Positions 39,734 to 51,317 of a stretch of DNA of 64,000 nucleotides are shown here, in pieces; positions within the stretch are counted from its first letter, which is position 1, and the number at the start of each line of letters is the position of its first letter. The stretch is from positions 10,141 to 74,140 of the forward strand of contig CAYSRG010000005.1 of NCBI GenBank assembly GCA_964433555.1. Reading direction: 5' to 3'. The DNA is from an uncultured Atribacterota bacterium (GTDB taxonomy: Bacteria > Atribacterota > Phoenicimicrobiia > Phoenicimicrobiales > Stramentimicrobiaceae). The position numbers were made by a program, and so were the translations under genes. The notes beneath the pieces are model-generated. The model ran no database searches and was not told the origin of the DNA. It worked only from the letters and a program-made list of their open reading frames with translations.

Positions 39734-40379
39734 TCTTTTTTCTCCGGTCTATTTCCAATTTCTCTGCTTCAATAAAATCACCTTGAAAGTTAATATTAAA
39801 AAAAGAATGTAATTCTGGATCACATCTTCTGATTTCCATTTCGGTAATCCGGCGAATTTTTAAAAAGGGAAAAATATCTCTTATCGCCAGTGTACCCTTT
39901 TTTAGATTCTGTTTAATTATTTTCAGGCAATTTTTACTATAAATGGCACATAAAGGTTCGAATAATTCCTTGCCATGAGTGGGAATTACTATATCATAAC
40001 CTTCCATATTTTCTATCATATATTCCACCAATCTTTTCTCAATAAAGGGCATATCATATCCTATAACTAGATTATAAAATGTTTTGGAATATTGTAAACC
40101 TGAAAAAATCCCTCCTAATGGCCCTTTTTGGGGGTAGATATCCTCTACAGTTAACTTATATTGGGGAAATCTATCTCTGGGTCCCACAATAATAATATCT
40201 TGCTCAGTAATTCCTTCTAGAGAAAGAATATTTAAAATAACTCGCTTTATAAGGATGGTACCCCTAAATTTTAGATAGCCTTTATCTTTACCTAAACCTA
40301 TTCTACTGCTTCTACCGCCTGCTAATACTATAACTGAAATAGCAGTATATTTTTTCTCTGTATCCATTATTATACTCAC
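39720..40379 (-). CDS. mobA: molybdenum cofactor guanylyltransferase MobA
   Basis: 219 aa. N-terminal VLAGGRSSRIG..DKG nucleotidyltransferase motif. Confidence 0.75.
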   Translation of the reverse strand: MSIIMDTEKKYTAISVIVLAGGRSSRIGLGKDKGYLKFRGTILIKRVILNILSLEGITEQDIIIVGPRDRFPQYKLTVEDIYPQKGPLGGIFSGLQYSKTFYNLVIGYDMPFIEKRLVEYMIENMEGYDIVIPTHGKELFEPLCAIYSKNCLKIIKQNLKKGTLAIRDIFPFLKIRRITEMEIRRCDPELHSFFNINFQGDFIEAEKLEIDRRKKNVNK

Positions 40380-40511: not shown

Positions 40512-41384
40512 TTATTTATTCTCTCTTAAATAAACATACCAATATATAGTAGCTACAAAGAAAGCTCCGCCAATTATATTGCCTATAGTTACTGGTAATA
40601 AATTATTAAATAAAAAACTCCCCCAATTCAATCGGCTAAGCTGATCCGTTAATCCTGCTGCTGCTACTACTGAAGTATTGTTTTTTAGCATAATACCCAT
40701 AGGTACAAAATACATATTGGCAATACTATGCTCAAAACCACTGGCTACAAAAGCCATAATGGGGAAATAGATACCAAGAATTTTACCAGGAACATCCTTA
40801 GCTGCTACTGCCATCCATACTGCCAGACATACCAGCCAGTTACAGAGAATTCCTCGTGCTATGGCTGCACTCCAGGTTAGATTAACCTTACCATTGGCTA
40901 TGGCCAAAGCCTTTGCCCCTACAGCAAAATTTCCGGTCTGCCAGAGCTGAGCATTATACATTAGCCATACTACCAGAAGAGAACCAATAAAGTTTGCTAT
41001 ATATACCCAGACCCAGCTGTTTAACAATTTTCCTACTGAAACATTCTTGTTTAAAGTGCCCACCACTATTAAATTATTTCCGGTAAATAATTCTGCCCCG
41101 GCAATAACAACCAGCATAAGACCAACTGAAAAGACACTACCAAATAGAAATTTGGTAATCCCATCACCTACATATTTTACTGCATCATAAGTAACCATAG
41201 TAGCCAGTTGCGCACCAAAACTGATATAAGCACCAGCTAGAATACCCAAGATAATCATTTTACTCCATGATAGACCAGCCTTGTTCTTACCAATAGTGCA
41301 AAAAGCATTAGCAATTGCACCTGGTGGGTTACATGGTGTTGTTACATCTTGCACTGATTGAATTTTATCTTTCTCTGTACTCAA
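40512..41384 (-). CDS. focA: formate/nitrite transporter family protein (FocA-like)
   Basis: 290 aa, 6-TM FNT fold with conserved GAELFTGN and half-helix motifs. Immediately downstream of fdhA. Confidence 0.85.
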   Translation of the reverse strand: MSTEKDKIQSVQDVTTPCNPPGAIANAFCTIGKNKAGLSWSKMIILGILAGAYISFGAQLATMVTYDAVKYVGDGITKFLFGSVFSVGLMLVVIAGAELFTGNNLIVVGTLNKNVSVGKLLNSWVWVYIANFIGSLLVVWLMYNAQLWQTGNFAVGAKALAIANGKVNLTWSAAIARGILCNWLVCLAVWMAVAAKDVPGKILGIYFPIMAFVASGFEHSIANMYFVPMGIMLKNNTSVVAAAGLTDQLSRLNWGSFLFNNLLPVTIGNIIGGAFFVATIYWYVYLRENK

Positions 41385-41417
41385 CTTAGTATCCTCCTTT
41401 TTTGATAATATTTATTT

Positions 41418-44192
41418 TCAGGATATCTTTTTAATCTTAACAGCACACACTTTATATTCTGGTATCTTAGAAACTGGATCAAGGGCTGCAATGGTTAATA
41501 AATTAGCAGCAGCTTCATGGAAATGGAAACTCATGAATACTACACCATTATCAGATTTTTCAGTAACCTTAGCCTTTGCCTGAATCTTTCCTCTTCGAGA
41601 GGCAACTTCAACCATTTCACCATCTTTTATACTCAATTGGCTGGCATCCTGAGGACTAATCTCAACTAATGCTTCTTTATATACTTCGCTTAGACCCTTA
41701 GATTTTCGGGTAACTGTACCGGTATGGAAGTGATATAATACTCTTCCAGTAGTAAAGATTAAAGGATATTCTTCATCAGGAAGTTCGGCAGCCTCTCTAA
41801 ATTCAACTGGGAAGAATTTTCCCTTTCCTCTAGTAAACTTATCCTCATGCAGGAACCTTGTCCCAGGATGGTTGGCATCTGGACAAGGCCATTGTAAACT
41901 TCCCTTTTCCAATCTTGGGTAGAGTATCCCTCTATAAATTGGAGTGAGTTGAGCAATTTCTTCCATAATTTCAGCAGGGCTATTGTAGCTCATATTATTA
42001 TATCCCATTTTCTGGGCTAGTTCACAGATTATCTGCCATTCCGGTTTTGATTCCCCTATGGGTTCAATAGCTTTATGGAATCTTTGTACTCTTCTCTCAG
42101 TATTAGTAATAGTGCCATCTTTCTCAGCAAAACTAGCACCGGGTAATACTACATCAGCTATTTCAGCTGTTTCAGTCATAAACATATCTGATACGACTAA
42201 AAAATCAACTTTCTTTAAAGCTTCACGGGCATGGTTTAAATCAGGATCTGACATAGCTGGATTTTCTGCCATGACCAATATCCCTCTAACTTTGCCTTCA
42301 TAAGCAGCGTTGAGTATTTCAACAACTGTCAATCCAACCTTGTTAGATAAATCTGCCTGCCAGGCTTTAGAAAACTTCTCTTGAACTGCGGGATCCACTA
42401 CGGCCTGATAACCGGAATACACATTGGGCAAAGCTCCCATATCACAAGCACCCTGAACATTGCTTTGTCCCCTTAAGGGATTTACTCCTGAACTCTCCTT
42501 CCCTATATTACCAGTTAACATCGCTATATTGGCAGTTGAAAGAACATTATCAGTGCCGCTAGTATGTTGGGTAATCCCCATGGAATAAATTAAAGAAGTA
42601 TTAGGACCTTTAGCATAAATTCTTGCTGCTTTTCTAATATCTTCAGCAGGTACTCCGGTAATCTTCGCTACTATTTCTGGATTATACTTAAGAACCACTT
42701 CCTTCATTTTTTCATAATCTTCGGTTCTTTCTTTAATAAATTCCTTATCTTCCAATCCCTCAGTAATTATGACATTCATCAAACCATTAAATAGAGCTAC
42801 ATCTGTTCCTGGTCTATGCCTTAACCAGAGAGTAGCATATTTAGCTAATTCTATTTCTCTAGGATCAGCTAAAATTAATTTTGCTCCATTTTTAGTTACC
42901 GCTTTTTTTATTTCCAGAGCAATGATAGGATGGTTCTCAGTAGTGTTGGAACCAGTTAAATAGATAACCGAGGCATGGGCAATTTCCTTAATAGAATTAG
43001 TCATGGCACCACTGCCAAAGGATTGAGCCAAGCCAGCAACGGTGGCTGAATGGCAAAGTCGGGCACAATGGTCAACATTATTGGTTCCCAGGACTGCCCT
43101 GGCAAATTTCATTAGTAGATAGTTTTCTTCATTAGTACATTTGGCTGAAGAAAGAACCGCTAAGCTATCTTGTCCGCTTTCTTTTTTAATCTCTTGAAAT
43201 TTATCACTGATTAACTGCAGTGCTTCATCCCAGGAAGCTGGTTCTAATTTACCATTTTTCCTGATTAAGGGAGTTTTTAAGCGATCTTCTCTATGAATAT
43301 AATCATTTCCAAAACGCCCTTTCACACAGAGATTAATGCCATTTACAACACTATCAGGATTGGAAGTAACCTTAACTACCTTGCCATCTTTAATATTCAG
43401 GTCAAATCCGCATCCGCATCCGCAGTAATTACAGGTAGTATGAACTTTTTCAAATTCCCAGGCTCTTCCTTTTCCTATAGCTGCCTTATCAGTTAATGCT
43501 CCAACAGGGCATACAGCAACGCACTGTCCACAAGAAACACAATTAGAATAATCGGGATTTTCTTCTGAACCAATAGTAATTTTTGTTTCATGTCCTAATT
43601 TATTGCCCAATCCGGCAATGACTTCTGTTTTTGTACCACGATATCCAAATCCAATAGCTCTTGATTGCTGAATCTCGTTACATATCTCTACACATCTTCG
43701 ACAAAGAATGCATTTATTCAAATCTCTTAAAATAAAAGGATTGCTTTCATCGATAGGAAGATTTCTTTCACTTCTGCCAAAACCGGATTCTTTAATCCCC
43801 ATTTCATAAGCTAAGTCCTGCAAATCACATTCACCATTCTTCTCACAGGTCATGCAATCCAGGGGATGCGTAGTTAATAATAATTCTAATACAGCTCGGC
43901 GAGCGTTTATTACTCTTTCACTATGAGTATATACAACCATACCTTCCTGTACCGGATATACGCATGAGGCAACCAGACAGGGATGACCTTTAACCTCTAC
44001 CACACATATACGACAGGAGCCTGGATAATGATTGATTTCTGGCATAGCACATAATGTGGGAATTATTATGCCTGCCTTAGTTGCTGCATCCAGGATTGTT
44101 GAATCAGGATCTGCCATAATTTTTTTGTCATTTATCGTTACCTGTACCAACGGCATCGCTATTTTTTCCTTTTTTACTCCTGTATCTTTCAT
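41418..44192 (-). CDS. fdhA: formate dehydrogenase catalytic subunit (Mo/W-bisPGD), FdsA/FdhA-like with NuoG-like N-terminus
   Basis: 924 aa. N-terminal 2Fe-2S ferredoxin plus His-ligated and two 4Fe-4S motifs. CNYCGCGCG cluster. MGD domain with active-site ...ARLCHSATVAGL..., Cys rather than Sec, and no in-frame stop. Confidence 0.9.
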   Translation of the reverse strand: MKDTGVKKEKIAMPLVQVTINDKKIMADPDSTILDAATKAGIIIPTLCAMPEINHYPGSCRICVVEVKGHPCLVASCVYPVQEGMVVYTHSERVINARRAVLELLLTTHPLDCMTCEKNGECDLQDLAYEMGIKESGFGRSERNLPIDESNPFILRDLNKCILCRRCVEICNEIQQSRAIGFGYRGTKTEVIAGLGNKLGHETKITIGSEENPDYSNCVSCGQCVAVCPVGALTDKAAIGKGRAWEFEKVHTTCNYCGCGCGFDLNIKDGKVVKVTSNPDSVVNGINLCVKGRFGNDYIHREDRLKTPLIRKNGKLEPASWDEALQLISDKFQEIKKESGQDSLAVLSSAKCTNEENYLLMKFARAVLGTNNVDHCARLCHSATVAGLAQSFGSGAMTNSIKEIAHASVIYLTGSNTTENHPIIALEIKKAVTKNGAKLILADPREIELAKYATLWLRHRPGTDVALFNGLMNVIITEGLEDKEFIKERTEDYEKMKEVVLKYNPEIVAKITGVPAEDIRKAARIYAKGPNTSLIYSMGITQHTSGTDNVLSTANIAMLTGNIGKESSGVNPLRGQSNVQGACDMGALPNVYSGYQAVVDPAVQEKFSKAWQADLSNKVGLTVVEILNAAYEGKVRGILVMAENPAMSDPDLNHAREALKKVDFLVVSDMFMTETAEIADVVLPGASFAEKDGTITNTERRVQRFHKAIEPIGESKPEWQIICELAQKMGYNNMSYNSPAEIMEEIAQLTPIYRGILYPRLEKGSLQWPCPDANHPGTRFLHEDKFTRGKGKFFPVEFREAAELPDEEYPLIFTTGRVLYHFHTGTVTRKSKGLSEVYKEALVEISPQDASQLSIKDGEMVEVASRRGKIQAKAKVTEKSDNGVVFMSFHFHEAAANLLTIAALDPVSKIPEYKVCAVKIKKIS

Positions 44193-44223
44193 TTTAATTT
44201 TATTTCAATCCTTTCTTTCAATA

Positions 44224-47200
44224 TTAGTCCTCTCGATATTCACAACGTAAGCACCTGCTGCTTTCTCGACAGGTTATCTCTTTATTCCATGTTTTCTCTA
44301 CCTCGTTATGAACTCCTCTATCTTGAATCGGAAGGAGATGGACTTGAGAACGTGCATAATCTACTGGATCTGCTTCGGGATCAAAATCTACGTTAATTGG
44401 ATCTTTTATTCTCCAGGGATAAGCTCTTTTCTTACCAGTTAAATAAAAATCAATAGCTTCAGCAGCATTCTGTGCTTCTCCTATTGCCTCAACTACAGTA
44501 GCAGGACCTAATGCCACATCACCACCGGCAAAAACATCTTGTATTTTGGTTACTCCTTTTTCAGTGGGAATAGTTTGATCGCGATTAATAATAATTTCTT
44601 CATTATGGAATAAATCTGAAATAGCAGGTTTTTGTCCAATAGATAAGATTAAACAATCGACTTTCTTGATAAAAGTAGATTCTTTAATTTCAATGGGTCT
44701 ACGCCGACCAGAAGCATCATAATTGCCTAATTTCATATTCACTAACTCTACTTCCAGGGAATCTTTGTTTGATTTCACTGACTTTATATTTTGTAGTAAA
44801 GAAATATTTATACCTTCTCTTTCAGCTTCATTAACTTCAGCTTCATCAGCAGGCATTTCTTCTCTGGTTCTTCGATAAACAATGGTAACCTTTGCTCCAA
44901 GCCTTTTAGCAGTTCTAGCGGCATCAATGGCAGAATTACCACCACCAATTACTATTACCTCTTTGCCAATATCAAGCTTTTCCTTTCTATTAAACTTAGA
45001 TAAGAATTCCAAACCGCTAAAAATCCTGGAATCGTCTAGGTTGTCCATCTCAGGCATAATGCAGTCCCAGGCACCAGCAGAAATATAGAATGCCTGGTAA
45101 CCTTCTTTTCTCAGCTGATCTAAAGTTATATCCTCTCCAATCCTGGTATTTGTTCGTATCTTAACTCCATAATCTACCAGGGCTTGGATCTCTTTTTCCA
45201 CAATATTCTTTGGTAAACGATAAGATGGGATAGCATAGGTTAACATTCCACCTGCTTTGGGCTGTGCTTCAAATACTGTTGTTTCATATCCTAACATAGT
45301 TAGAAAATAAGCATTGGAAAGTCCAGAAGGACCGCCACCGATAATGGCAACTTTTTTACCATTTTTATTATTTTTTTCTGGGAAACAATCCAGATAATTA
45401 TCAACCTGATCGGCCATAAATCGTTTAACAGCACGAATATTTATGGCATCATCGATATCCTTTCTTCGACATCTGGATTCACAGAAAGCAGGGCACACTC
45501 TTCCGCATACCGCTGGAAAAGGATTTGTTCTTAAGTGTGCCTGCATTGCTTTTTTATATTGACCCTCTTTGGTATAAGCCAGATATGCCGGTACATTAAC
45601 TGAAGCAGGACAGGAATTATTACAAGGTGCATATACTAATTCTGCACATACTCCTGCTCTACATTTCTTATCTCTAATATGCTCGATATACTCATGCCTG
45701 AAGTATCTTAATGTGGATAAAATCGGATTGGGGGCAGTTTGCCCTAATCCACAAAGAGCTGTATCTTTAATTCGATAAGATAATTCTTCCAGCGTATCTA
45801 AATCTTCCATCTTGCCTTTACCTTCACAAATCCTGGTCAATATCTCCAGCATCACCCTGGTACCTTCACGACAAGGAGTGCATTTACCACAAGATTCATC
45901 CTGAATAAACTCCATGAAATAACGGGCTATATCGACCATACAGGTATCTTCATCCATTACTATCAATCCACCTGAGCCCATAATGGCACCCAGTTCTTTT
46001 AATGTTTCATAATCAACTATGGTATTTAGATGTTGTGCCGGAATGCAACCACCAGACGGACCGCCAATTTGAACAGCTTTAAATTTTTTATTTCCCGGAA
46101 TCCCTCCACCGATATTATAAACAATTTCACCTAGGGTAATACCTATAGGAACTTCGATTAAACCGGTATTGTTAATATTTCCAGCCAGAGCAAATATCTT
46201 AGTTCCTTTACTCTTTTCAGTTCCAACAGAAGCAAAATTTTCAGCTCCATATAAAATTATATAAGGTATATTAGCCAATGTTTCTACATTATTTAAAACA
46301 GTAGGGGATTCAAATAATCCTTTATTAGCAGGGAAGGGGGGTCTTGGCCTGGGTTCTCCCCTCTTGCCTTCAATAGAGCGCATTAAAGCAGTTTCCTCAC
46401 CACAAACAAATGCTCCTGCACCCATTCTAATTTCTACATCAAAATCAAAACCAGTCCCCAGGATATTCTTGCCCAGTAGCTGATGGTTCCTCATCTCTTT
46501 GATGGCAATTTTTAGCCTTTCAATAGCTAAGGGATATTCAGCCCGCACATAAATATATCCCTGGTTAGCTCCAATAGCATAACCGCCAATCATCATAGCT
46601 TCTAATACACTATAGGAGTCTCCTTCCAGCATACTACGATCCATAAATGCACCGGGATCACCTTCGTCTGCATTACATAAAATATATTTTTGTTTACCAG
46701 AAGCTCTTGCCGCAAATTCCCACTTCAATCCAGTTGGAAAACCGGCACCGCCTCTACCTCTCAACCCGGATTTTTTAATCTCATCAATTACTTGCTGGGG
46801 AGTCATCTCTGTCAAAGCCTTCCCCAAAGCCATAAAACCATCGGCACCGATATAATCATCAATGGTATTAACATCAATAATTCCACAGTTTCGGCGAGCA
46901 ATTTTTCTCTGTAATTTAAAGAAATCAATATCTTCTATCATAGCTACTAATTCTTCTGTTTTTGGCTTTTTATAAAAAAGCCGCTGCACTACTCTGCCTT
47001 TTAAGATATGTTCCTGTACAATTTCCCGGGCATCCTCTGGTTTTAATTGTTGATAAAACACTCCATCAGGATAAACAACCATAATGGGTCCCAGTTCACA
47101 TATACCCATACATCCAGTGGTAATAATTTCTACCTCTTTTTCCAGATTAGCCTCTTTTAATGCCACTTCCAACGCTTCTCTAACCCTTACTGAACCATTA

Positions 47201-47253
47201 GACATACAAGAAGTACCATGACATAGAAGAAGCTGGATTCTTATATTATTCAT
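44224..47253 (-). CDS. fusion protein: Trx-like [2Fe-2S] domain + NuoF/HydB-like flavoprotein + GltD/NfnB-like NAD(P)H oxidoreductase
   Basis: 1009 aa. N-terminal Cx4C..Cx3C. NuoF motifs (GRGGAGFPTGLKWE, FMN/NADH site). Cys-rich 4Fe-4S region. C-terminal two Rossmann GxGxxG (IIGGGPSGL, VIGGGNSAID) as in glutamate synthase small subunit. Confidence 0.8.
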   Translation of the reverse strand: MNNIRIQLLLCHGTSCMSNGSVRVREALEVALKEANLEKEVEIITTGCMGICELGPIMVVYPDGVFYQQLKPEDAREIVQEHILKGRVVQRLFYKKPKTEELVAMIEDIDFFKLQRKIARRNCGIIDVNTIDDYIGADGFMALGKALTEMTPQQVIDEIKKSGLRGRGGAGFPTGLKWEFAARASGKQKYILCNADEGDPGAFMDRSMLEGDSYSVLEAMMIGGYAIGANQGYIYVRAEYPLAIERLKIAIKEMRNHQLLGKNILGTGFDFDVEIRMGAGAFVCGEETALMRSIEGKRGEPRPRPPFPANKGLFESPTVLNNVETLANIPYIILYGAENFASVGTEKSKGTKIFALAGNINNTGLIEVPIGITLGEIVYNIGGGIPGNKKFKAVQIGGPSGGCIPAQHLNTIVDYETLKELGAIMGSGGLIVMDEDTCMVDIARYFMEFIQDESCGKCTPCREGTRVMLEILTRICEGKGKMEDLDTLEELSYRIKDTALCGLGQTAPNPILSTLRYFRHEYIEHIRDKKCRAGVCAELVYAPCNNSCPASVNVPAYLAYTKEGQYKKAMQAHLRTNPFPAVCGRVCPAFCESRCRRKDIDDAINIRAVKRFMADQVDNYLDCFPEKNNKNGKKVAIIGGGPSGLSNAYFLTMLGYETTVFEAQPKAGGMLTYAIPSYRLPKNIVEKEIQALVDYGVKIRTNTRIGEDITLDQLRKEGYQAFYISAGAWDCIMPEMDNLDDSRIFSGLEFLSKFNRKEKLDIGKEVIVIGGGNSAIDAARTAKRLGAKVTIVYRRTREEMPADEAEVNEAEREGINISLLQNIKSVKSNKDSLEVELVNMKLGNYDASGRRRPIEIKESTFIKKVDCLILSIGQKPAISDLFHNEEIIINRDQTIPTEKGVTKIQDVFAGGDVALGPATVVEAIGEAQNAAEAIDFYLTGKKRAYPWRIKDPINVDFDPEADPVDYARSQVHLLPIQDRGVHNEVEKTWNKEITCRESSRCLRCEYRED

Positions 47254-47275
47254 AATTAATCTACTCCTTATTAAA

Positions 47276-47773
47276 CTATTTGTATCTCTCTAAAATTGCG
47301 TCTAATTTACTGGGAGTTAACCGACCATGAACTTCATTGTCAACCATAATAACTGGAGCCATTCCGCATGACCCAAAACAACGTTGTTCTCCTAAAGTAA
47401 ATCTCAGATCTTCTGTTGTTTCGCCTATCTTTATACCCAATTTATTTTCTAATGCCTCCAGAATCTTTTTAGCACCTCTGACATAACAAGCTGTTCCCAT
47501 ACAGATTGTAATAGTGTGCCGACCTACAGGCTGTGTTTTGAAATAAGAATAAAATGTAACTACTCCAAATACTTCACTAACAGAAATATTCATCTCCTCA
47601 GCAACGAATTCTTGGACTTCTGAAGGTAAATAACCAAACAAGGATTGTGCTTTATACAAGACTGGGATTAAATAGCCCTTTTTCTCTTTATTATCTCTAA
47701 TAAAACTCCCTAATTCCTGGTACTTTTCTTCAACAGTGCATTCATCATTTTTAATGATAGCTGTTTCACTCAT
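47276..47773 (-). CDS. NuoE/HydC-like thioredoxin-fold [2Fe-2S] subunit
   Basis: 165 aa. Cx4C (ICMGTAC) and Cx3C (CFGSC). Confidence 0.8.
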   Translation of the reverse strand: MSETAIIKNDECTVEEKYQELGSFIRDNKEKKGYLIPVLYKAQSLFGYLPSEVQEFVAEEMNISVSEVFGVVTFYSYFKTQPVGRHTITICMGTACYVRGAKKILEALENKLGIKIGETTEDLRFTLGEQRCFGSCGMAPVIMVDNEVHGRLTPSKLDAILERYK

Positions 47774-48141
47774 TATTTTTTCCCCTTTGAAAATAAATAT
47801 TTTTCTACTACTCTATTATTTAAAACATGTTCATTAAAAATTATCCTTGCTGCCTCTACATCAACATTGCGATAAGTTACCGGTCTATCTTCTTCTACAT
47901 ATACATGAATCATAGGTTCTTGGGCGCAAAAACCAAAACATCCTGAAGCAGTAATAATAATATCCGTTTTTTTGCTTTTTTCAATCAATTCCAAGAATTC
48001 ATTCATTGTTTCTCTAGCCCCAGCAGCTATTCCACAACTACCCATTCCTACTACTATCTTGACACGATGCTTTCCCGATCTAAGCTTTAAATCTTTCTTT
48101 ACCTTCTCCCGCATTATCTTTAGTTCTTCAAAATTTTTCAT
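47773..48141 (-). CDS. small thioredoxin-like ferredoxin-fold protein (HydD-like; only 3 Cys)
   Basis: 122 aa. GSCG ... GCFGFC. Resembles the N-terminal domain of HydB. Confidence 0.5.
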   Translation of the reverse strand: MKNFEELKIMREKVKKDLKLRSGKHRVKIVVGMGSCGIAAGARETMNEFLELIEKSKKTDIIITASGCFGFCAQEPMIHVYVEEDRPVTYRNVDVEAARIIFNEHVLNNRVVEKYLFSKGKK

Positions 48142-48199
48142 AGCTCCTCCTCTCCAAACATTAATTTATATTGAATAATATTAATACCTTAAAAATAAG

Positions 48200-48736
48200 T
48201 TACCTAATATCTATTTTTTTAAATTCTTTTTGTGATACCTCATAAATATGTTTTCTTATATTTATATAATTTTTTAATCCCTTAGCAATTTCATTTCGTA
48301 ATTCCAGGAAATCTAAAATCAGTTCCTCTCTATCCTCTTTGGTAATAAATAATTTAAGATTAATCTCCGGCCAGGCAAAAAATATATCTGTAAAAGTCCA
48401 GGCCAAATCACCAAAGGGTTTGGCATCAATATGAGACATGTCTATCTTAAATTGAAGAGCAGTCCCTCCTTTTTTATTTATCCTTCTTATCTTTAAATAT
48501 CCGCCGGTATCCTCTGCCGTTCTTTTTAATAAGGGGAGACCCAATCCAACCCTTCTGGTCTTCCTGGAAGTTATAAAAGGATCTAATACTTCCTGCCCAA
48601 TAATTCCTTTCCCATTATCGGAAATGCTACAAAAAAAAATACTTTTAGTATAAGTTATTTTCACAATAACTTCATTAGCCCCGGCATTAACTGAATTTTC
48701 TATAATATCAAAGAAATGGTCCGCTATATTTTTCAT
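48200..48736 (-). CDS. GHKL/histidine-kinase-like ATPase domain protein
   Basis: 178 aa. N-box ENSVNAG, G1 DNGKGI, G2 GLGLPL. Confidence 0.65.
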   Translation of the reverse strand: MKNIADHFFDIIENSVNAGANEVIVKITYTKSIFFCSISDNGKGIIGQEVLDPFITSRKTRRVGLGLPLLKRTAEDTGGYLKIRRINKKGGTALQFKIDMSHIDAKPFGDLAWTFTDIFFAWPEINLKLFITKEDREELILDFLELRNEIAKGLKNYINIRKHIYEVSQKEFKKIDIR

Positions 48737-49487
48737 TTCCGGTCTTCCTTAGAAAATCTTGCAATGAGCTAAAATCTATTATATGATTATCATCTTTTAC
48801 TTCCAAAAAAAATGTTCCAATATCTTCCAAAAAGTGGCTATCTGAACCGCTAATTACTGGGAATCCTTCCAGTAAGTCTCCAATTTCATATTTCTTATTT
48901 ATCCATTCAAATCTTGATACTTCTACTGCATCAAAATTACTAGTAGGATCTAAAAAACCTATCTGGCTCATTAAACTGCAATAATCTCTATTAATATGAG
49001 CCGGTATTGCTATTCCACCCAGAAAATGAATGTAGTCAATTAACTCATCTAAGCTGATTTGTAAAGCATTTTGCCTTAACATATAATCTATTTCAACTAT
49101 CTCTCCTTTTTCATCATAGATTAGCTGGTCACCAAAAAAAGAAGGTTTATTTTTCATTTTTGGCAGACAATCACTTATCTTCTTCTCCATCTCTCTCATA
49201 CTATATTCATCTGGGAAATAACCCAATATATGAATCTCTTCCCGGGTAGTCAGCTCAATCCCGAGAATAATATTAACTGAGCTTATTTTATTAATTTTTC
49301 TAATTAAAATCGAATGGGCAACCGCATTGTGATCAGTAATAGCAATTAAGTTTAGTCCGCTTTTTTCTGCCTTTTTCAATATGTTTTGTGGTGACATAAT
49401 ATTTTCCGCGCACGCTGAAAGAGAAGAGTGAATATGTAAATCAATCTTGATCAGATTTGCCTCCCAGCATCTGGTACAATAGACCAC
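48708..49487 (-). CDS. PHP-domain metal-dependent phosphoesterase
   Basis: 259 aa. IDLHIHSSLS...ITDHN His motifs of the PHP family. Confidence 0.75.
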   Translation of the reverse strand: MVYCTRCWEANLIKIDLHIHSSLSACAENIMSPQNILKKAEKSGLNLIAITDHNAVAHSILIRKINKISSVNIILGIELTTREEIHILGYFPDEYSMREMEKKISDCLPKMKNKPSFFGDQLIYDEKGEIVEIDYMLRQNALQISLDELIDYIHFLGGIAIPAHINRDYCSLMSQIGFLDPTSNFDAVEVSRFEWINKKYEIGDLLEGFPVISGSDSHFLEDIGTFFLEVKDDNHIIDFSSLQDFLRKTGNEKYSGPFL

Positions 49488-49785
49488 ATATTTGAAAAGA
49501 ATTTTTTTCAGTTCTCAATAGATTAATCTGTTCTTCCCTGGCTTTTTCTATCAATTCCTGGTTTATTTCTACATTATTGGTAAAGATAATTGCCCTTATA
49601 TCCTTGATCAGCGCTACAGCTATACTATTTTTATGTGCTTGGATAGTAATCCATACACTATCATTGCTGGCATGGGCAATAACATCTGACATTAAATCTC
49701 CACAATAACCTGTTTTGATTTCCTCATCTGAACAGAATACAATCTTCTCTAAGGAACATCTATTAATAATCTGGCTTAATTTCAT
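49441..49785 (-). CDS. DRTGG-domain protein
   Basis: 114 aa, DRTGG-like fold (GDLMSDV...). Paired with the CBS gene. Confidence 0.55.
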   Translation of the reverse strand: MKLSQIINRCSLEKIVFCSDEEIKTGYCGDLMSDVIAHASNDSVWITIQAHKNSIAVALIKDIRAIIFTNNVEINQELIEKAREEQINLLRTEKNSFQICGLLYQMLGGKSDQD

Positions 49786-49787
49786 CT

Positions 49788-50720
49788 CTATCCTCCTATA
49801 TGGATAACTGCTTTTAAAATAGTACCGGTTTCCATAGAAGATTCTAATTCTAGATGATCAGCGCATTTTTTTATATTGGGTAAACCCATGCCTGCACCAA
49901 ATCCTAAAGCCCTGATCTGTTCAGAAGCAGTTGTAAAACCCGGTTTCATTGCTTCTTCTATATCCGGAATACCTGGACCATAATCAACGGCAGTAATAAT
50001 AATACTATTCTGTTCCAATTCTACTGAAATATATCCCCCTAAGGAATGGATACTGATATTCATCTCTGCCTCATAGCAAATAATGGCAACTCTTCGCATA
50101 ATCTGTTTATCTATGGTCATTTTTTGTAAATAAGTTCTTATGATACTGGCTACTCTGCCAGCATTATCAAAGTCAGCTTTTTTGACTTCAAAACGAAGTG
50201 GCTTCTGTGGAGTATTCTTAATTAAGGTATCGGATAGCTGATAATTTCTGTTTTCTTTTTGTTCCACTTTCTCGGCAATGGTTTGAATAGTTAGCAGCAG
50301 TCTATTTAAAATATCTCCCATAGTTATGATACCAACTATTTTACGGGAATGGACATTCCCTGTTACCGGCAAACGACCAAATTTATATCTTTCAAACTTT
50401 TTTATAGCTGAAACCAAAGAATAATTTTGAGGAATGGTTATCACATCTTTAGTCATATAATCTTTTACCGTATCGTTCACATAATCTTCATCCAGAGCAG
50501 TAATTACATTATCAATACTGACAATACCAATAATATTTTTCTGTTCATCCAGGATGGGAACTCCTGAAATTCTATTTTGTTTCAAAGATAATTGAATCTC
50601 ACGAAAGGTAGCCTGCTCACCAAAAAATATTACCTTACTGGTCATAGCATCTTTCACTTTTAACTCATAAACCAGCTCATTGGCTAAAGTTAATTTTTCT
50701 CTGGAATGTAAAATTGTCAT
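49788..50720 (-). CDS. CBS-pair + GHKL ATPase domain protein
   Basis: 310 aa. Two CBS motifs, C-terminal HATPase-like G-boxes (GPGIPD, GFGAGMGL). Confidence 0.7.
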   Translation of the reverse strand: MTILHSREKLTLANELVYELKVKDAMTSKVIFFGEQATFREIQLSLKQNRISGVPILDEQKNIIGIVSIDNVITALDEDYVNDTVKDYMTKDVITIPQNYSLVSAIKKFERYKFGRLPVTGNVHSRKIVGIITMGDILNRLLLTIQTIAEKVEQKENRNYQLSDTLIKNTPQKPLRFEVKKADFDNAGRVASIIRTYLQKMTIDKQIMRRVAIICYEAEMNISIHSLGGYISVELEQNSIIITAVDYGPGIPDIEEAMKPGFTTASEQIRALGFGAGMGLPNIKKCADHLELESSMETGTILKAVIHIGG

Positions 50721-51064
50721 TTCTTCTCTTCACTAATAATTGCCTCAACAATTGCTCGACAGGCATCAAACATTGTTTTGGAGGTCATTAGAAGTGGGAT
50801 ACGGTGGGAACGGGCTAGACCAATTGCTTCCTGTTCAGGAGCTTTCCCCCTCACAAAAACCACACCTACCCCTCCGGCAATCTCAGCGGTTCTTACCACC
50901 TGCTGAGAGGTTAATCCAGTTAATAATAAAAAATCGTCCTTGCTTAAAGCAAGAACATCACTTAATAAATCACTGGCTGCAAATTCCTCAATATTCTGGT
51001 CTAGCAAGTTTTCTCCAGTCAAGACCTCAGCATCTAATATGTTGACAATATCTTTTATTTTCAT
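50717..51064 (-). CDS. DRTGG-domain protein
   Basis: 115 aa, second DRTGG paralog. First gene of the FDH operon. Confidence 0.55.
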   Translation of the reverse strand: MKIKDIVNILDAEVLTGENLLDQNIEEFAASDLLSDVLALSKDDFLLLTGLTSQQVVRTAEIAGGVGVVFVRGKAPEQEAIGLARSHRIPLLMTSKTMFDACRAIVEAIISEEKK

Positions 51065-51163: not shown

Positions 51164-51181
51164 TTGTGAAAAATATCACAA
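51164..51181. promoter_or_regulatory. Rex operator (Rex box)
   Basis: TTGTGAA-AAAT-ATCACAA, one mismatch to the Firmicutes Rex consensus TTGTGAAnnnnTTCACAA. Lies between rex and the first gene of the FDH operon. Confidence 0.6.
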
Positions 51182-51317
51182 AGCACACCAAGTCATTTTA
51201 TCACATGCCCTTAATATATGTCAAACTCGTCCTTAAATTTTTGGCCATAAATTATTTCGCCCTCTAGTTTTATTTTAAATACATCACTCCTGTTGGCAAA
51301 TAATAATTTTACAAAAT

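What the first reader, a model, noticed from the sequence alone, without database searches (positions are those of the whole stretch)
40512..51064. Formate dehydrogenase operon built on the blueprint of electron-bifurcating [FeFe]-hydrogenase operons
The operon is DRTGG, CBS-GHKL, DRTGG, PHP, GHKL-ATPase, Trx-like Fd, NuoE-like, NuoF-like fusion, FdhA, FocA. The sensory module and the HydD/HydC/HydB-like trio mirror the regulatory and diaphorase part of bifurcating hydrogenase operons. The catalytic subunit is a Mo/W formate dehydrogenase with a NuoG-like FeS N-terminus instead of HydA. This suggests a formate dehydrogenase coupled to NAD(P)H, possibly flavin-based electron-bifurcating, whose reduced ferredoxin could feed the adjacent Mbh hydrogenase. 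That would be a two-module formate hydrogenlyase with energy conservation.
Basis: inference. Interest (0 to 1): 0.85.

Follow-up and report, generated by a model that had tools for sequence, protein, structure and literature searches.

The report
Formate dehydrogenase with NADPH-module swap
An Atribacterota operon encodes a formate dehydrogenase built like the electron-bifurcating hydrogenases, but the small domain that normally hands electrons to ferredoxin is replaced by an NADPH-binding flavin module, so the enzyme probably links formate to NADH and NADPH rather than feeding ferredoxin to the neighbouring hydrogenase.

Summary
On the minus strand, 51064-40512 holds a tightly packed ten-gene operon: DRTGG, CBS-GHKL, DRTGG, PHP, GHKL, a small Trx-like protein, NuoE-like BfuC, a 1009-aa NuoF-like fusion, FdhA and FocA. 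It is syntenic in other Atribacterota MAGs.

The "hydrogenase blueprint" reading is right but already known. It is the Bfu (HydABC-like) family, and JS1 Atribacteria papers already annotate an "electron-bifurcating FDH" next to Mbh.

Residues 1-540 are a complete BfuB core with the FMN site and the B1, B2 and B5 ligands. The C-terminal ferredoxin-like domain carrying clusters B3/B4 is the ferredoxin docking site and is essential for bifurcation in HydABC. Here it is replaced by a GltD/Nfn-type module with 2x[4Fe-4S], FAD and an NADPH site.

The same BfuC plus BfuB-GltD core pairs with [FeFe]-HydA in Firmicutes, with FdhA in Poribacteria, and with no adjacent catalytic subunit in Lentisphaerae.

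A conserved Rex operator overlaps the operon promoter.

Best reading: a ferredoxin-independent FDH/CO2 reductase linked to both NAD(H) and NADP(H), induced at high NADH, with formate exported by FocA. The ferredoxin-to-Mbh formate hydrogenlyase idea is not excluded but loses its main structural support. This is a new variant of a known kind.

The parts
51318..51911 (-). rex, redox-sensing (NADH/NAD+) transcriptional repressor
   Evidence: NCBIfam NF003995 245 bits (cut-off 126) and NF003993 233 bits (cut-off 217). Pfam Put_DNA-bind_N + CoA_binding. Same position in L001 and L003.
51195..51224 (-). Best sigma-70-like promoter of the region (TTGACA-18-TAAAAT with TG extension)
   Evidence: 11 of 12 matches, the top hit of the scan of 38000-54000. 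A consensus match only. The overall number of promoter-like sites equals the chance expectation.
51164..51181 (.). Rex operator, TTGTGAAAAATATCACAA (perfect TTGTGA-N6-TCACAA palindrome), immediately downstream of the -10 box
   Evidence: It is the only site in 64 kb within 1 mismatch of TTGTGAANNNNTTCACAA (0.02 expected). The exact palindrome is conserved upstream of the first operon gene in L001, L002 and L003 and absent from the 22 other loci held when one search was run. Consensus from PMC6391272.
50717..51064 (-). DRTGG-domain protein (115 aa), first gene of the sensory/regulatory module
   Evidence: PF07085 25.6 bits (cut-off 25.2). 80-85% identical orthologues in L001-L003.
49788..50720 (-). 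CBS-CBS-GHKL protein (310 aa), SpoIIAB-like Ser-kinase-type ATPase with CBS ligand-binding pair
   Evidence: CBS 89 bits, HATPase_c 27.8, HATPase_c_2 26.6. TIGR01925 anti-sigma F 49 bits, below cut-off.
49441..49785 (-). Second DRTGG-domain protein (114 aa)
   Evidence: PF07085 29 bits; Hpr_kinase_N 28.9 bits.
48708..49487 (-). PHP-family phosphoesterase (259 aa)
   Evidence: PHP 34.5 bits, PHP_C 23.1 bits.
48200..48736 (-). Stand-alone GHKL ATPase (178 aa)
   Evidence: HATPase_c 36.8 bits. The same gene type lies inside the canonical hyd operons L011/L014/L020.
47773..48141 (-). HydD-like thioredoxin-like protein (122 aa), only three Cys (C36, C68, C72)
   Evidence: Best PDB matches are the N-terminal Trx-like domains of StnB 8oh5_B (2.8e-15) and T. 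sibiricus NfnB 9n5u_B (1.1e-14). Sequence.
47276..47773 (-). BfuC/HydC (NuoE-like, 165 aa), [2Fe-2S] cluster C1
   Evidence: PF01257 177 bits. HoxE/NuoE NCBIfam hits. Cys91/96/132/136 present.
45634..47253 (-). BfuB core (residues 1-540 of the fusion): Trx-like [2Fe-2S] B5, FMN/NAD(H) site, SLBB, [4Fe-4S] B1, B2/Zn site
   Evidence: Gap-free alignment 5-540 to A. mobile NiFe-HydB 7t2r_B (802 bits). Ligands C11/16/48/52, C455/458/461/501, and C438/C476/H525/C531/C536 are conserved in 14 fusions. The glycine-rich FMN loop 162-175 is invariant.
44224..45633 (-). GltD/Nfn-type module (residues 541-1009): 2x[4Fe-4S] (Fer4_20), FAD, NADP(H) site, invariant C-terminal CxxC. It replaces the B3/B4 ferredoxin-like domain
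   Evidence: Fer4_20 70 bits, Pyr_redox_2 109 bits. Best PDB matches are the NADPH/FAD modules of Nfn-Bfu A subunits 9n5u_A (371 bits), 9bov_A and 8oh5_C, then NfnL 5jca_L. No Fer4-type hit even at E<=10, whereas the canonical BfuB C-terminus of L029 hits more than 10 Fer4 families. GGGNSA (GxGxxA) and YRRTR are invariant.
41418..44192 (-). FdhA = BfuA with pterin: cytoplasmic Cys-type Mo/W-bisPGD formate dehydrogenase with NuoG-like N-terminus (1x[2Fe-2S], 4x[4Fe-4S])
   Evidence: TIGR01591 907 bits (cut-off 666). Full-length match to FdsA 6tg9_A (712 bits). The catalytic domain matches 9t1s_L (774 bits), with Cys380 aligned to its Sec. Cluster ligands listed. No twin-arginine motif in the N-terminus.
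40512..41384 (-). FNT-family channel, FocA-like (290 aa)
   Evidence: PF01226 281 bits. TIGR00790 253 bits (cut-off 232). TIGR04060 FocA 243 bits is below its cut-off of 290.
39720..40379 (-). MobA-like molybdenum cofactor guanylyltransferase
   Evidence: NTP_transf_3 99.8 bits. MobA NCBIfam hits are below cut-off. Syntenic in L001-L003.
38963..39733 (-). FdhD sulfurtransferase (FDH maturation)
   Evidence: TIGR00129 174 bits (cut-off 141). PF02634 198 bits.
54017..62287 (-). Neighbour, not part of the operon: Mbh-type group 4 [NiFe] hydrogenase with Mrp-like module (MbhA-N)
   Evidence: Pfam hits MNHE, PhaG_MnhG, MbhD, MbhE, MnhB, Oxidored_q2, Proton_antipo_M, Oxidored_q6, Complex1_30kDa, Complex1_49kDa/NiFeSe_Hases, NADHdh, Fer4. 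MbhL has both NiFe CxxC motifs.
33375..38285 (-). Neighbour: hypF, hypD, hypE [NiFe] maturation genes on the other side of the FDH operon
   Evidence: HypF domains. HypD 487 bits and AIRS/AIRS_C (HypE-like).

Best explanation
The locus encodes a soluble, cytoplasmic, cysteine-type Mo- or W-bisPGD formate dehydrogenase/CO2 reductase with the three-subunit architecture of the Bfu (HydABC-like) family. FdhA is the BfuA subunit carrying the pterin. Its partners are the NuoE-like BfuC and a BfuB.

The BfuB core keeps the FMN/NAD(H) site and the B1, B2 and B5 metal sites. Its C-terminal ferredoxin-like domain (clusters B3/B4, the ferredoxin docking site) has been replaced in situ. The replacement is a GltD/Nfn-type module with two [4Fe-4S] clusters, FAD and an NADP(H) site.

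The complex therefore has three two-electron sites: formate/CO2, NAD(H) and NADP(H). It has no recognisable ferredoxin site.

Most likely reaction: it connects formate/CO2 to both pyridine-nucleotide pools, with NADP(H) taking the place of ferredoxin at the end of the low-potential branch. The overall reaction would be 2 HCOO- + NAD+ + NADP+ <-> 2 CO2 + NADH + NADPH.

Regulation and direction: transcription starts at a promoter overlapped by a Rex operator, so the operon is derepressed when NADH/NAD+ is high. In the cell the enzyme would then run mainly as a CO2 reductase. Formate would leave through FocA as an electron sink (interspecies formate transfer). This would work in parallel with Mbh, which disposes of reduced ferredoxin as H2.

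The DRTGG / CBS-GHKL / PHP / GHKL genes are a regulatory module shared with bifurcating hydrogenase operons. It is possibly a phosphorylation switch responding to adenylate ligands.

Shown: gene content, domain architecture, ligand conservation, replacement of the B3/B4 domain, portability of the fused core, and the conserved Rex site. Inferred: the electron path, NADP specificity, absence of ferredoxin coupling, and the physiological direction.
For: 1. Architecture. Residues 5-540 align gap-free with bifurcating HydB/BfuB structures. Residues 542-1005 align with the NADPH/FAD module of Nfn-Bfu A subunits. A canonical BfuB that accompanies a 59%-identical FdhA (L029) aligns to residues 14-540 and then diverges into a Fer4 dicluster domain. 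The replacing segment hits only Fer4_20. The first GltD cluster ligand (C544) lies 8 residues after the last B2 ligand (C536).

2. All ligands, the FMN loop, GxGxxA and YRRTR are invariant in fusions from Atribacterota, Verrucomicrobiota/Lentisphaerae and Firmicutes. GxGxxA is the motif taken as NADP(H)-specific in StnC (PMC7483475).

3. Role of B3/B4. Ferredoxin binds between the BfuC C-terminal domain and the BfuB ferredoxin-like domain, and electrons run C1 -> B3/B4 -> Fd (PMC12018979). Deleting B3/B4 abolishes bifurcation (PMC11829005).

4. The BfuC + BfuB-GltD core is portable. It pairs with [FeFe]-HydA in Peptococcaceae/Desulfitobacteriia and with FdhA in Poribacteria. In L011/L014/L020 it sits in tandem with a canonical HydABC operon. 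That implies a function different from the ferredoxin-dependent enzyme.

5. Rex. rex sits directly upstream. The only near-consensus operator in 64 kb lies between the best promoter-like site and the first gene. It is conserved in three related MAGs.

6. Energetics, using values in Table 1 of PMC9304861. In-cell E' is about -280 mV for NAD and about -380 mV for NADP, mean -330 mV. My calculation: the formate/CO2 couple (-420 mV standard) reaches -330 mV at a CO2:formate ratio of about 1000:1. That is the range expected for syntrophic formate transfer, the lifestyle proposed for JS1 (PMC6776118).
Against: - No biochemistry exists for any BfuB-GltD protein.
- The GltD-type cluster pair could still dock ferredoxin, as the distal cluster of NfnL does in NfnSL.
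- Distant variants (P0143, P0183) carry a Fer4 dicluster after the GltD module. This shows that ferredoxin-like domains and GltD modules can coexist.
- The operon lies between the mbh structural genes and the hyp maturation genes in the window and in L001/L003. That placement fits a functional link to the ferredoxin-dependent hydrogenase.
- Using NADPH as a co-reductant for a catabolic electron sink is unusual.
- In Lentisphaerae the fused core has no adjacent BfuA. The core may therefore have a function of its own, for example a transhydrogenase.
- The AlphaFold2 model was too poor to test cluster geometry (mean pLDDT 69, junction below 50).
- Rex control fixes neither the reaction direction nor the acceptors.
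Confidence: 0.45

Rival explanations
1. This is a ferredoxin- and NAD+-dependent electron-bifurcating FDH (2 formate + NAD+ + 2 Fd_ox -> 2 CO2 + NADH + 2 Fd_red). Its reduced ferredoxin is oxidised by the neighbouring ion-translocating Mbh, so together they form a two-module, energy-conserving formate hydrogenlyase. The GltD module is an accessory NADPH entry or exit.
For: - The BfuBC core with the FMN, B1, B2, B5 and C1 sites is intact and very close to proven bifurcating enzymes.
- The operon lies between mbh and hypFDE, and this arrangement is conserved in L001/L003.
- FocA could import formate.
- JS1 literature assumes a bifurcating FDH and Mbh-dependent ferredoxin oxidation (PMC6776118, PMC6281690).
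- The homologous cluster pair of NfnL does reduce ferredoxin in NfnSL (from general knowledge of that enzyme).
Against: - The B3/B4 ferredoxin-like domain is the only experimentally defined ferredoxin docking site in the family and is essential in HydABC. It is missing.
- mbh and the FDH operon are separate transcription units, with an opposite-strand gene, a SPOR gene and rex between them.
- Rex repression relieved by NADH fits poorly with a reaction that makes more NADH.
- The synteny evidence comes from close relatives only (89-94% identity).
- The same fused core occurs in Firmicutes and Poribacteria loci with no mbh-like genes detected among those probed (MbhH/L/M) within about 10 kb.
Confidence: 0.2
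2. A four-substrate redox hub. The complex retains ferredoxin coupling through the GltD-type clusters and adds NADP(H). It would combine an Nfn-type transhydrogenase reaction (NADPH + NAD+ + Fd) with formate/CO2 conversion, equilibrating the formate, NADH, NADPH and ferredoxin pools in one enzyme.
For: - The GltD module and the HydD-like protein are both most similar to parts of Nfn-Bfu/Stn enzymes.
- In Lentisphaerae the fused core, BfuC and the HydD-like protein occur without any adjacent catalytic BfuA. This suggests the core alone performs a pyridine-nucleotide reaction.
- Distant variants add a Fer4 dicluster after GltD.
Against: - No ferredoxin-like domain or ferredoxin gene is in the operon.
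- Nothing comparable has been characterised.
- A hub with four freely exchanging couples would dissipate the energy that bifurcation is meant to conserve, unless it is tightly gated.
Confidence: 0.2
3. An ordinary, non-bifurcating NAD(P)H-dependent FDH. Electrons from formate reach either the FMN/NAD+ site or the FAD/NADP+ site independently, giving dual cofactor specificity through two separate sites with no energetic coupling. The bifurcation-type features of BfuB are evolutionary leftovers.
For: - FdhA aligns over its full length with the alpha subunits of the non-bifurcating NAD-dependent FDHs of R. capsulatus and M. extorquens (712-720 bits).
- Formate at standard potential can reduce both NAD+ and NADP+ without coupling (Table 1 of PMC9304861).
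Against: - The B2 His/Cys site and the B5 cluster are absent from the non-bifurcating FdsB, Nqo1 and HoxF homologues (PMC9304861; PMC11829005). Here they are strictly conserved across phyla.
- The core scores 800 bits against bifurcating HydB but only about 390 bits against FdsB.
- The elaborate regulatory module is typical of bifurcating hydrogenase operons.
Confidence: 0.12

Closest known systems
Type 1 Fdh-Bfu, e.g. the predicted Carboxydothermus hydrogenoformans enzyme (Bfu family of Schut et al. 2022, PMC9304861)
   Same: It has a three-subunit BfuABC plan in which BfuA itself carries the Mo/W-pterin site behind a NuoG-like FeS chain. It has a NuoE-like BfuC. Its BfuB has FMN, B1, the B2 His/Cys site and the N-terminal Trx-like B5. 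The BfuB core here is closest to the A. mobile NiFe-HydB / A. woodii HydB group. A 59%-identical FdhA with a canonical BfuB exists (L029).
   Different: The BfuB C-terminal ferredoxin-like domain (B3/B4, InterPro IPR017896 in the family definition) is replaced by Fer4_20 + FAD + NADP(H). The predicted low-potential partner is therefore NADP(H), not ferredoxin.
Nfn-Bfu / StnABC transhydrogenases (S. ovata 8oh5, C. saccharolyticus 9bov, T. sibiricus 9n5u)
   Same: They share the same kind of GltD-like NADPH/FAD/2x[4Fe-4S] module (371 bits to Tsi NfnA), the same BfuBC core, and a Trx-like domain with an incomplete Cys set like the HydD-like protein. The C-terminal CxxC of the fusion aligns with the start of the cysteine motif that follows the module in NfnA/StnC.
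   Different: In Nfn-Bfu the module is inserted in the A subunit and feeds the mid-potential path (FAD-A7-A6-A3-A2-A1-B1). BfuB keeps B3/B4 and reduces ferredoxin, and the pterin site is degenerate. Here the module sits on BfuB in place of B3/B4, and the A subunit is a true FDH.
NAD+-dependent FdsABG formate dehydrogenases (R. capsulatus 6tg9/6tga, C. necator 6vw7)
   Same: They are cytoplasmic Cys-type FDHs with a NuoG-like alpha subunit (712 bits full length) plus NuoF-like beta and NuoE-like gamma subunits. They use an FdhD/FdsC-type sulfurtransferase and MobA for maturation.
   Different: FdsB lacks B2-B5 and any GltD module. The fusion's core scores about 390 bits to FdsB against 800 bits to bifurcating HydB. 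No FdsD is present. The sensory gene module is absent from fds operons (the last point is from general knowledge).
HylABC-FdhF2 of Gottschalkia (Clostridium) acidurici, the one biochemically proven ferredoxin/NAD+-bifurcating FDH (Wang et al. 2013, cited in PMC9304861)
   Same: A formate dehydrogenase is coupled to a HydBC-like flavoprotein core.
   Different: It is a Type 3 enzyme with a separate selenocysteine, tungsten FdhF2 and a HydA-like HylA, and it has a canonical BfuB with B3/B4. Here there is a single Cys-type FdhA = BfuA and no B3/B4.
Formate hydrogenlyases (E. coli FHL-1; Thermococcus onnurineus Fdh-Mfh-Mnh)
   Same: An FDH gene, a formate channel gene and a group 4 membrane-bound [NiFe] hydrogenase with hyp/hycI maturation genes lie in one chromosomal neighbourhood.
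   Different: In true FHLs the FDH is wired directly to the hydrogenase by FeS subunits within one complex and one operon. Here the FDH has its own NuoEF-type flavoprotein module and its own promoter and regulator, with other genes between it and mbh. Any link would need a diffusible carrier that the enzyme is not visibly equipped to reduce.
NfnSL (NfnAB) NADH-dependent ferredoxin:NADP+ oxidoreductase
   Same: It has a GltD-like large subunit with FAD, an NADPH site and two [4Fe-4S] clusters (288 bits to 5jca_L, 260 bits to 4ylf_B).
   Different: No PyrK-like small subunit with [2Fe-2S]/FAD is present. The NAD(H) site here is a NuoF-type FMN. The module is closer to the non-bifurcating entry module of Nfn-Bfu than to NfnL.

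Membership tests
Bfu family (BfuABC; Schut et al. 2022) | BfuB with NuoF-type FMN/NADH domain, SLBB and N3-type [4Fe-4S] (B1) | tested here: met
   Complex1_51K 156 bits and NADH_4Fe-4S 123.5 bits. SLBB scores 26.6 bits, just under its cut-off of 27. B1 ligands C455/458/461/501 are invariant.
Bfu family (BfuABC; Schut et al. 2022) | B2 site with conserved His plus Cys ligands spanning the B1 motif (absent from non-bifurcating homologues) | tested here: met
   C438, C476, H525, C531 and C536 coincide with the A. mobile ligands in a gap-free alignment. C476 becomes Thr only in the HydA-linked Firmicutes fusions, as described for FeFe-type BfuB.
Bfu family (BfuABC; Schut et al. 2022) | N-terminal thioredoxin-like [2Fe-2S] (B5) on BfuB | tested here: met
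   2Fe-2S_thioredx hit at residues 6-81. C11/C16/C48/C52 are invariant.
Bfu family (BfuABC; Schut et al. 2022) | C-terminal ferredoxin-type 2x[4Fe-4S] domain on BfuB (B3/B4, IPR017896), the ferredoxin docking site | tested here: not met
   No Fer4-family hit in the fusion, nor in residues 520-640 at E<=10. The positive control, the canonical BfuB C-terminus of L029, hits more than 10 Fer4 families. Alignments to canonical BfuBs stop at residue 540. Two clusters of another fold (Fer4_20) occupy the position.
Bfu family (BfuABC; Schut et al. 2022) | BfuC: NuoE-like subunit with [2Fe-2S] C1 | tested here: met
   PF01257 177 bits. Cys91/96/132/136 present.
Bfu family (BfuABC; Schut et al. 2022) | Catalysis: simultaneous, coupled reduction of NAD+ and ferredoxin by a third substrate | not testable with these tools
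   This needs enzyme assays. No BfuB-GltD enzyme has been characterised in the literature searched.
Type 1 Fdh-Bfu | BfuA subunit itself contains the Mo/W-bisPGD formate-oxidising site behind a NuoG-like FeS chain | tested here: met
   Fer2_4, NADH-G_4Fe-4S_3, 2x Fer4, Molybdop_Fe4S4, Molybdopterin and Molydop_binding domains. TIGR01591 907 bits. Active-site Cys380-His381 and the PLRGQSNVQG arginine motif are present.
Nfn-Bfu / Stn transhydrogenase | GltD-like FAD/NADPH module inserted in the A subunit, degenerate pterin site, BfuB with B3/B4 | tested here: not met
   The module is present but sits on BfuB. The A subunit is a bona fide FDH. B3/B4 are absent.
Non-bifurcating NAD-dependent FDH (FdsABG) | NuoF-like beta subunit lacking B2-B5; NuoE-like gamma; FdsA alpha | tested here: not met
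   The alpha and gamma equivalents are present. The beta equivalent retains B2 and B5 and adds the GltD module.
Formate hydrogenlyase (FHL) | FDH and group 4 [NiFe] hydrogenase form one complex or operon linked by dedicated FeS subunits | tested here: not met
   They are separate transcription units, with hycI (opposite strand), a SPOR gene and rex in between. There is no HycB/HycF-like connector in the FDH operon.
Rex regulon | Rex operator (TTGTGAANNNNTTCACAA) in the promoter region of the regulated operon | tested here: met
   There is one site within 1 mismatch in 64 kb (0.02 expected), at 51164-51181 just downstream of the best -10 box. It is conserved in L001-L003. Binding and NADH response were not tested.

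The most novel reading that the evidence does not exclude
BfuB-GltD plus BfuC is a portable, previously unrecognised bifurcation core in which NADP(H) replaces ferredoxin as the low-potential partner. Enzymes built on it would perform ferredoxin-independent electron bifurcation/confurcation between the NAD and NADP pools. The mid-potential couple would be formate/CO2 (Atribacterota, Poribacteria) or H2/H+ (Peptococcaceae, Desulfitobacteriia). The reaction is 2 formate (or 2 H2) + NAD+ + NADP+ <-> NADH + NADPH. It would be poised near -330 mV, which matches formate or H2 at syntrophic concentrations. This would be a new reaction class for the Bfu family, and a way to make NADPH from dilute H2/formate or to dump NADH as formate with the help of NADPH.
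Probability: 0.3. Interest if true: 0.85.

Novelty: new variant of a known kind. Interest (0 to 1): 0.55.

Why it matters
JS1 Atribacterota are among the most abundant bacteria in subseafloor and hydrocarbon-rich sediments. Their energy metabolism is known almost entirely from genome inference. Current models assume a ferredoxin/NADH-confurcating FDH.

If the enzyme actually couples NAD(H) and NADP(H) to formate, the predicted redox balance, the thermodynamic window for formate-based syntrophy, and the supposed formate-to-H2 link to Mbh all change.

For enzymology, a natural swap of the ferredoxin arm of a Bfu core for an NADPH-flavin module is useful material. It recurs with FdhA, with HydA, or alone in at least five phyla. 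It gives a ready-made test of where the low-potential branch of these still poorly understood bifurcating enzymes ends, and a possible route to ferredoxin-free, NAD(P)H-driven CO2 reduction or H2 production.

Public databases label these proteins simply as 'NuoF', so they are invisible to the current census of the family.

Tried and rejected
1. AlphaFold2 of the 1009-aa fusion with an 18-sequence alignment gave mean pLDDT 69 and pTM 0.52. The NuoF half and the junction (539-546) were below 50, while the GltD half was about 90. The model is too poor for conclusions on domain packing. No coordinates are returned, so cluster distances cannot be measured, and I did not run fold searches on it.

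3. Eight full-text literature searches (a ninth query was rejected on syntax), covering the Bfu family, Atribacteria and Rex, and including queries for a NuoF/HydB-GltD fusion, NADPH-linked Bfu FDH, and Atribacterota FDH with NADPH, found no description of this architecture. The key Atribacteria paper (Nobu et al. 2016, PMC4737943) is not held and could not be read. An earlier remark there cannot be excluded.

4. Rex-box search with 3 mismatches is at chance level (5 found, 6.2 expected). Only the site with at most 1 mismatch is meaningful. A 2-mismatch site inside mbhL (55902-55919) is treated as chance. No Rex site was found upstream of mbh.

5. Promoter and terminator scans are at or near chance overall (64 promoter-like sites against 64.1 expected; 15 terminator-like against 9.8 +/- 3.0 expected). 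I used only the top promoter hit, which sits next to the Rex site. No convincing terminator closes the operon.

6. Selenocysteine FDH is rejected. The ORF is uninterrupted, and Cys380 aligns with the Sec of 9t1s_L.

7. A periplasmic FDH is rejected. There is no Tat motif, and the partners are NuoEF-type.

8. The fusion as an assembly or frameshift artefact is rejected. More than 100 clusters at 90% identity have the same length and domain set. About ten 50%-identity representatives span the full length.

9. The single-origin idea for the fusion is not supported by a rough NJ tree of the shared core. The tree has no support values, so I treat repeated swapping only as likely.

10. Mo versus W could not be decided. 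No mod/tup transporter genes are in the window.

Full report
**Observation**

The window is low-GC (about 35%) with almost all genes on the minus strand.
- DRTGG (115 aa)
- CBS-CBS-GHKL (310 aa)
- DRTGG (114 aa)
- PHP phosphoesterase (259 aa)
- GHKL ATPase (178 aa)
- a 122-aa thioredoxin-like protein
- a NuoE/HoxE-like protein (165 aa, PF01257 177 bits)
- a 1009-aa NuoF-like fusion
- a 924-aa formate dehydrogenase alpha subunit with a NuoG-like iron-sulfur N-terminus (TIGR01591 907 bits against a cut-off of 666)
- a 290-aa formate/nitrite-transporter-family channel

Gaps between these genes range from -47 to +58 bp.

The functional unit is somewhat larger than stated:
- Downstream are mobA and fdhD, the FDH cofactor maturation genes (FdhD TIGR00129 174 bits, cut-off 141).
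- Upstream is rex (NF003995 245 bits, cut-off 126).
- Further upstream are a SPOR-domain gene, hycI on the opposite strand, and a complete mbhA-N cluster. Its large subunit has both [NiFe] CxxC motifs.
- On the other side of the operon are hypF, hypD and hypE.
- The rest of the window is housekeeping.

**Source and conservation**

The fusion protein is present as an exact sequence in public data. Its near relatives are annotated 'NADH-quinone oxidoreductase subunit NuoF' from Atribacterota/Caldatribacteriota MAGs.

Three Atribacterota contigs (L001-L003, fusion 89-94% identical) keep the complete order: rex, DRTGG, CBS-GHKL, DRTGG, PHP, GHKL, HydD-like, BfuC, fusion, FdhA, FocA, MobA, FdhD, then HypF. 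Mbh lies upstream in the two contigs that reach that far.

**The 'hydrogenase blueprint'**

- Canonical [FeFe]-hydrogenase operons recovered in the same search (L011, L014, L020) have DRTGG, (CBS-)GHKL, PHP, HydC, GHKL, HydD and HydB in front of HydA.
- Residues 5-540 of the fusion align without a single gap to the B subunit of the structurally characterised bifurcating NiFe-hydrogenase of Acetomicrobium mobile (7t2r_B, 802 bits). They align nearly as well to A. woodii HydB (7q4v_B, 791 bits).
- The non-bifurcating homologues FdsB and Nqo1 reach only about 390 bits.

The idea is not new, however.
- Schut et al. 2022 (PMC9304861) generalised HydABC to the 'Bfu' family. They catalogued 82 Fdh-Bfu enzymes, including a Type 1 form in which BfuA carries the pterin, exactly as here.
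- For JS1 Atribacteria, Liu et al. 2019 (PMC6776118) already list an 'electron-bifurcating formate dehydrogenase' plus Mbh for ferredoxin re-oxidation.
- Lee et al. 2018 (PMC6281690) already suggest Fdh plus Mbh as a formate-to-H2 route.

**What the fusion really is**

The 1009-aa protein has these parts:
- an N-terminal thioredoxin-like [2Fe-2S] domain (residues 6-81)
- the NuoF FMN domain (159-330)
- SLBB
- the N3-type [4Fe-4S] domain (441-525)
- Fer4_20 (532-618)
- a two-dinucleotide-binding-domain flavoprotein region (633-927)

Residues 542-1005 match best the NADPH/FAD/2x[4Fe-4S] module of the A subunits of the Nfn-Bfu transhydrogenases: T. sibiricus 9n5u_A (371 bits), C. saccharolyticus 9bov_A and S. 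ovata 8oh5_C. Next come NfnL, NfnB and GltD.

The BfuB core keeps every ligand that distinguishes bifurcating from non-bifurcating homologues:
- B5: C11/16/48/52
- B1: C455/458/461/501
- the B2 His/Cys site: C438, C476, H525, C531, C536
- the glycine-rich FMN loop

The C-terminal ferredoxin-like domain that carries clusters B3 and B4 is missing.
- Alignments to all canonical BfuBs end at residue 540.
- The following segment matches only Fer4_20 even at E<=10. The C-terminus of a canonical BfuB, used as a positive control, matches more than ten Fer4 families.
- The first cysteine of the GltD-type cluster domain (C544) lies eight residues after the last B2 ligand (C536). This is therefore a replacement in situ, not an addition.

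This matters for function.
- In the T. sibiricus Nfn-Bfu structures, ferredoxin binds between the C-terminal domain of the C subunit and this ferredoxin-like domain. The low-potential path is C1 -> B3/B4 -> Fd (PMC12018979).
- Deletion of B3/B4 abolished bifurcation in T. kivui HydABC (cited in PMC11829005).
- The Bfu family was defined with the ferredoxin-type domain (IPR017896) as a required BfuB feature, and its census excluded metagenomic data. That explains why these proteins were not catalogued.

**The other subunits**
- FdhA has ligands for one [2Fe-2S] and four [4Fe-4S] clusters. One of the latter is His-ligated.
- FdhA has the Cys-His active-site pair, with Cys380 aligned to the selenocysteine of the closest solved FDH. 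It has the conserved arginine motif and no Tat signal. It is a cytoplasmic Cys-type enzyme. Mo versus W cannot be decided.
- BfuC has the four C1 ligands.
- The 122-aa 'Trx-like Fd' has only three cysteines. It resembles most the N-terminal domain of StnB/NfnB. In T. sibiricus that domain binds zinc, not a cluster. Its role is open.

**A portable core**

The fusion is not an Atribacterota oddity.
- More than 100 clusters at 90% identity have the same length and domain set.
- An exhaustive HMMER scan of 1.84 billion representatives finds about ten 50%-identity clusters that span the full length, down to 34-38% identity. This compares with 8502 NuoF/HydB-like hits at E<1e-30.

Its gene contexts differ:
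- In Peptococcaceae, Desulfitobacteriia, Gracilibacter and Ca. Dichloromethanomonas the order is BfuC, BfuB-GltD, then a true [FeFe]-HydA. In three loci this sits directly behind a canonical HydABC operon.
- In a Poribacteria contig a 52%-identical fusion precedes a 61%-identical FdhA.
- In Lentisphaerae the sensory genes, the HydD-like gene, BfuC and the fusion are present, but no catalytic BfuA follows.
- Another FdhA homologue of similar distance (59%, L029) is paired with a canonical, Fer4-bearing BfuB.

All cofactor ligands are invariant across fusions from these contexts. So are the GxGxxA and YRRTR motifs of the NADP(H) site and a C-terminal CxxC pair. The one exception is C476->Thr in the HydA-linked proteins, the variation known for FeFe-type BfuB.

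On the shared core, canonical HydBs are as similar to the window's protein (63%) as fusions from other phyla are (59-62%). In a rough NJ tree the two kinds are interleaved (no support values). The C-terminal module seems to have been exchanged more than once. Some distant variants carry a Fer4 dicluster after the GltD module.

**Regulation**
- The only site in the 64-kb window within one mismatch of the Rex operator consensus is TTGTGAAAAATATCACAA at 51164-51181. The consensus TTGTGAANNNNTTCACAA is quoted in PMC6391272, and 0.02 such sites are expected by chance.
- The site lies in the 253-bp gap between rex and the first operon gene. It is immediately downstream of the best promoter-like element of the region (51224-51195, 11 of 12 matches with a TG extension).
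- The exact palindrome is found at the equivalent place in all three Atribacterota loci that include this region, and in none of the 22 other loci held at that point.
- Rex repressors release DNA when NADH/NAD+ rises and typically control NADH-consuming fermentative enzymes (PMC6391272, PMC2883068).
- This is indirect evidence, but it fits an NADH-oxidising, formate-producing role with FocA as exporter. It fits formate oxidation less well, because that would add NADH.

**Mechanistic reading**

Shown:
- The complex has a formate/CO2 site, a NuoF-type FMN/NAD(H) site and a GltD-type FAD/NADP(H) site.
- The NADP(H) module occupies the topological position of the ferredoxin arm.
- No ferredoxin-like domain or ferredoxin gene is in the operon.

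Inferred:
- Electrons that would leave a Bfu core through C1 (or B2) to B3/B4 and ferredoxin go instead through the two GltD-type clusters to FAD and NADP+.
- The overall reaction would be 2 formate + NAD+ + NADP+ <-> 2 CO2 + NADH + NADPH.
- Using the in-cell potentials tabulated by Schut et al. (NAD about -280 mV, NADP about -380 mV, formate -420 mV standard), the reaction is balanced at about -330 mV. By my calculation the formate couple reaches this at a CO2:formate ratio of roughly 1000:1, which is typical of syntrophic formate transfer.
- Whether the two nucleotide sites are obligatorily coupled (true bifurcation/confurcation) or independent cannot be decided from sequence.

**Rivals**
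1. It keeps some support from the mbh-fdh-hyp neighbourhood, and from the fact that the homologous clusters of NfnL do reduce ferredoxin. It loses its main structural basis, however, and the units are separately transcribed.
2. A four-substrate hub combining Nfn-like and FDH reactions. The Lentisphaerae 'orphan' cores and the Nfn-like affinities of the module and of the HydD-like protein suggest it.
3. A plain dual-site NAD(P)H FDH without coupling. The strict conservation of the B2 and B5 sites disfavours it.

**Limits**
- Structure prediction of the fusion was poor and uninformative.
- Complex modelling and assays are outside these tools.
- One key Atribacteria paper could not be read.

**Verdict**

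The general interpretation (a Bfu-type FDH) is correct but already known for this lineage. The specific claim of ferredoxin production for Mbh is weakened by the sequence. The apparently undescribed feature is the replacement of the ferredoxin arm by an NADPH-flavin module on a core that is shared with hydrogenases in other phyla. This is a new variant of a known kind.

Noticed in passing
L026 and L027 (Lentisphaerae), 2149-11036; L028 7038-17651: The sensory genes (DRTGG, CBS-GHKL, PHP, GHKL), a 118-aa HydD-like gene, BfuC and a 59%-identical BfuB-GltD fusion occur with no FdhA or HydA directly downstream. A canonical BfuB/BfuC pair lies divergently upstream (L026). In L028 a NuoE/NuoF-like pair and a HydA lie about 5 kb away, behind a VapBC pair. 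The fused core may work alone, for example as a transhydrogenase, or borrow a catalytic subunit.
   Followed up: partly
L011 607-13671, L014 596-13671, L020 4-7975 (Clostridia MAGs): Two hydrogenase gene sets sit in tandem. The first is a canonical operon with sensory genes, HydC, GHKL, HydD and a HydB of about 598 aa with a Fer4 domain, plus HydA. The second, immediately after, is BfuC, BfuB-GltD and a second HydA-like gene (confirmed as a true [FeFe] HydA only in the homologous locus L013). This is a natural side-by-side pair of the ferredoxin-type and NADPH-type enzymes.
   Followed up: partly
window 47773-48141 (-): The HydD-like protein lacks the first Cys of the thioredoxin-like [2Fe-2S] motif, leaving only C36, C68 and C72. 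It resembles the N-terminal domain of StnB/NfnB, which binds Zn in T. sibiricus Nfn-Bfu. It accompanies the fusion in Atribacterota and Lentisphaerae but not in the Firmicutes HydA-linked clusters.
   Followed up: partly
window 44227-44250 (-), residues 1001-1004 of the fusion: An invariant CxxC pair sits at the extreme C-terminus of all 14 fusions compared. It aligns with the start of the cysteine motif that follows the GltD module in NfnA/StnC. It probably supplies two ligands to one of the GltD-type clusters, and it hints that the module derives from an Nfn-Bfu A subunit.
   Followed up: partly
P0143 (1110 aa) and P0183 (1130 aa), distant representatives: A further architecture exists: NuoF core + Fer4_20 + FAD/NAD(P)H domain + a C-terminal Fer4 dicluster domain. 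Here a ferredoxin-like domain follows the GltD module instead of being replaced by it.
   Followed up: partly
L030 3590-9700 (Ca. Poribacteria contig): A BfuB-GltD fusion (1044 aa) and FdhA are separated by a DUF2283 gene, with no NuoE-like BfuC gene adjacent.
   Followed up: no
window 50935-50957 (-): The strongest terminator-like hairpin of the region (10-bp stem followed by ATTTTTTATT) lies inside the first gene of the operon (DRTGG). It could be chance or an attenuator.
   Followed up: no
window 38478-38915 (-): A 145-aa ORF between fdhD and hypF has only a sub-threshold RuvX-like Pfam match and no NCBIfam family.
   Followed up: no
window 55902-55919: A Rex-like sequence with two mismatches (TAGTGAATAACTTCACCA) lies inside mbhL. 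It is not in a promoter region and is within the chance expectation. No Rex box was found upstream of mbh.
   Followed up: partly
window 33375-38285 and 53161-53607: The [NiFe] maturation genes are split around the FDH operon. hycI lies on the opposite strand between mbh and rex, and hypF/hypD/hypE lie downstream of fdhD. The FDH operon therefore looks inserted into an mbh-hyp region.
   Followed up: partly
public records of P0001/P0391 and relatives: All named members of the fusion family are annotated 'NADH-quinone oxidoreductase subunit NuoF', 'FAD-dependent oxidoreductase' or 'hydrogenase'. The GltD half is not reflected in the names.
   Followed up: yes
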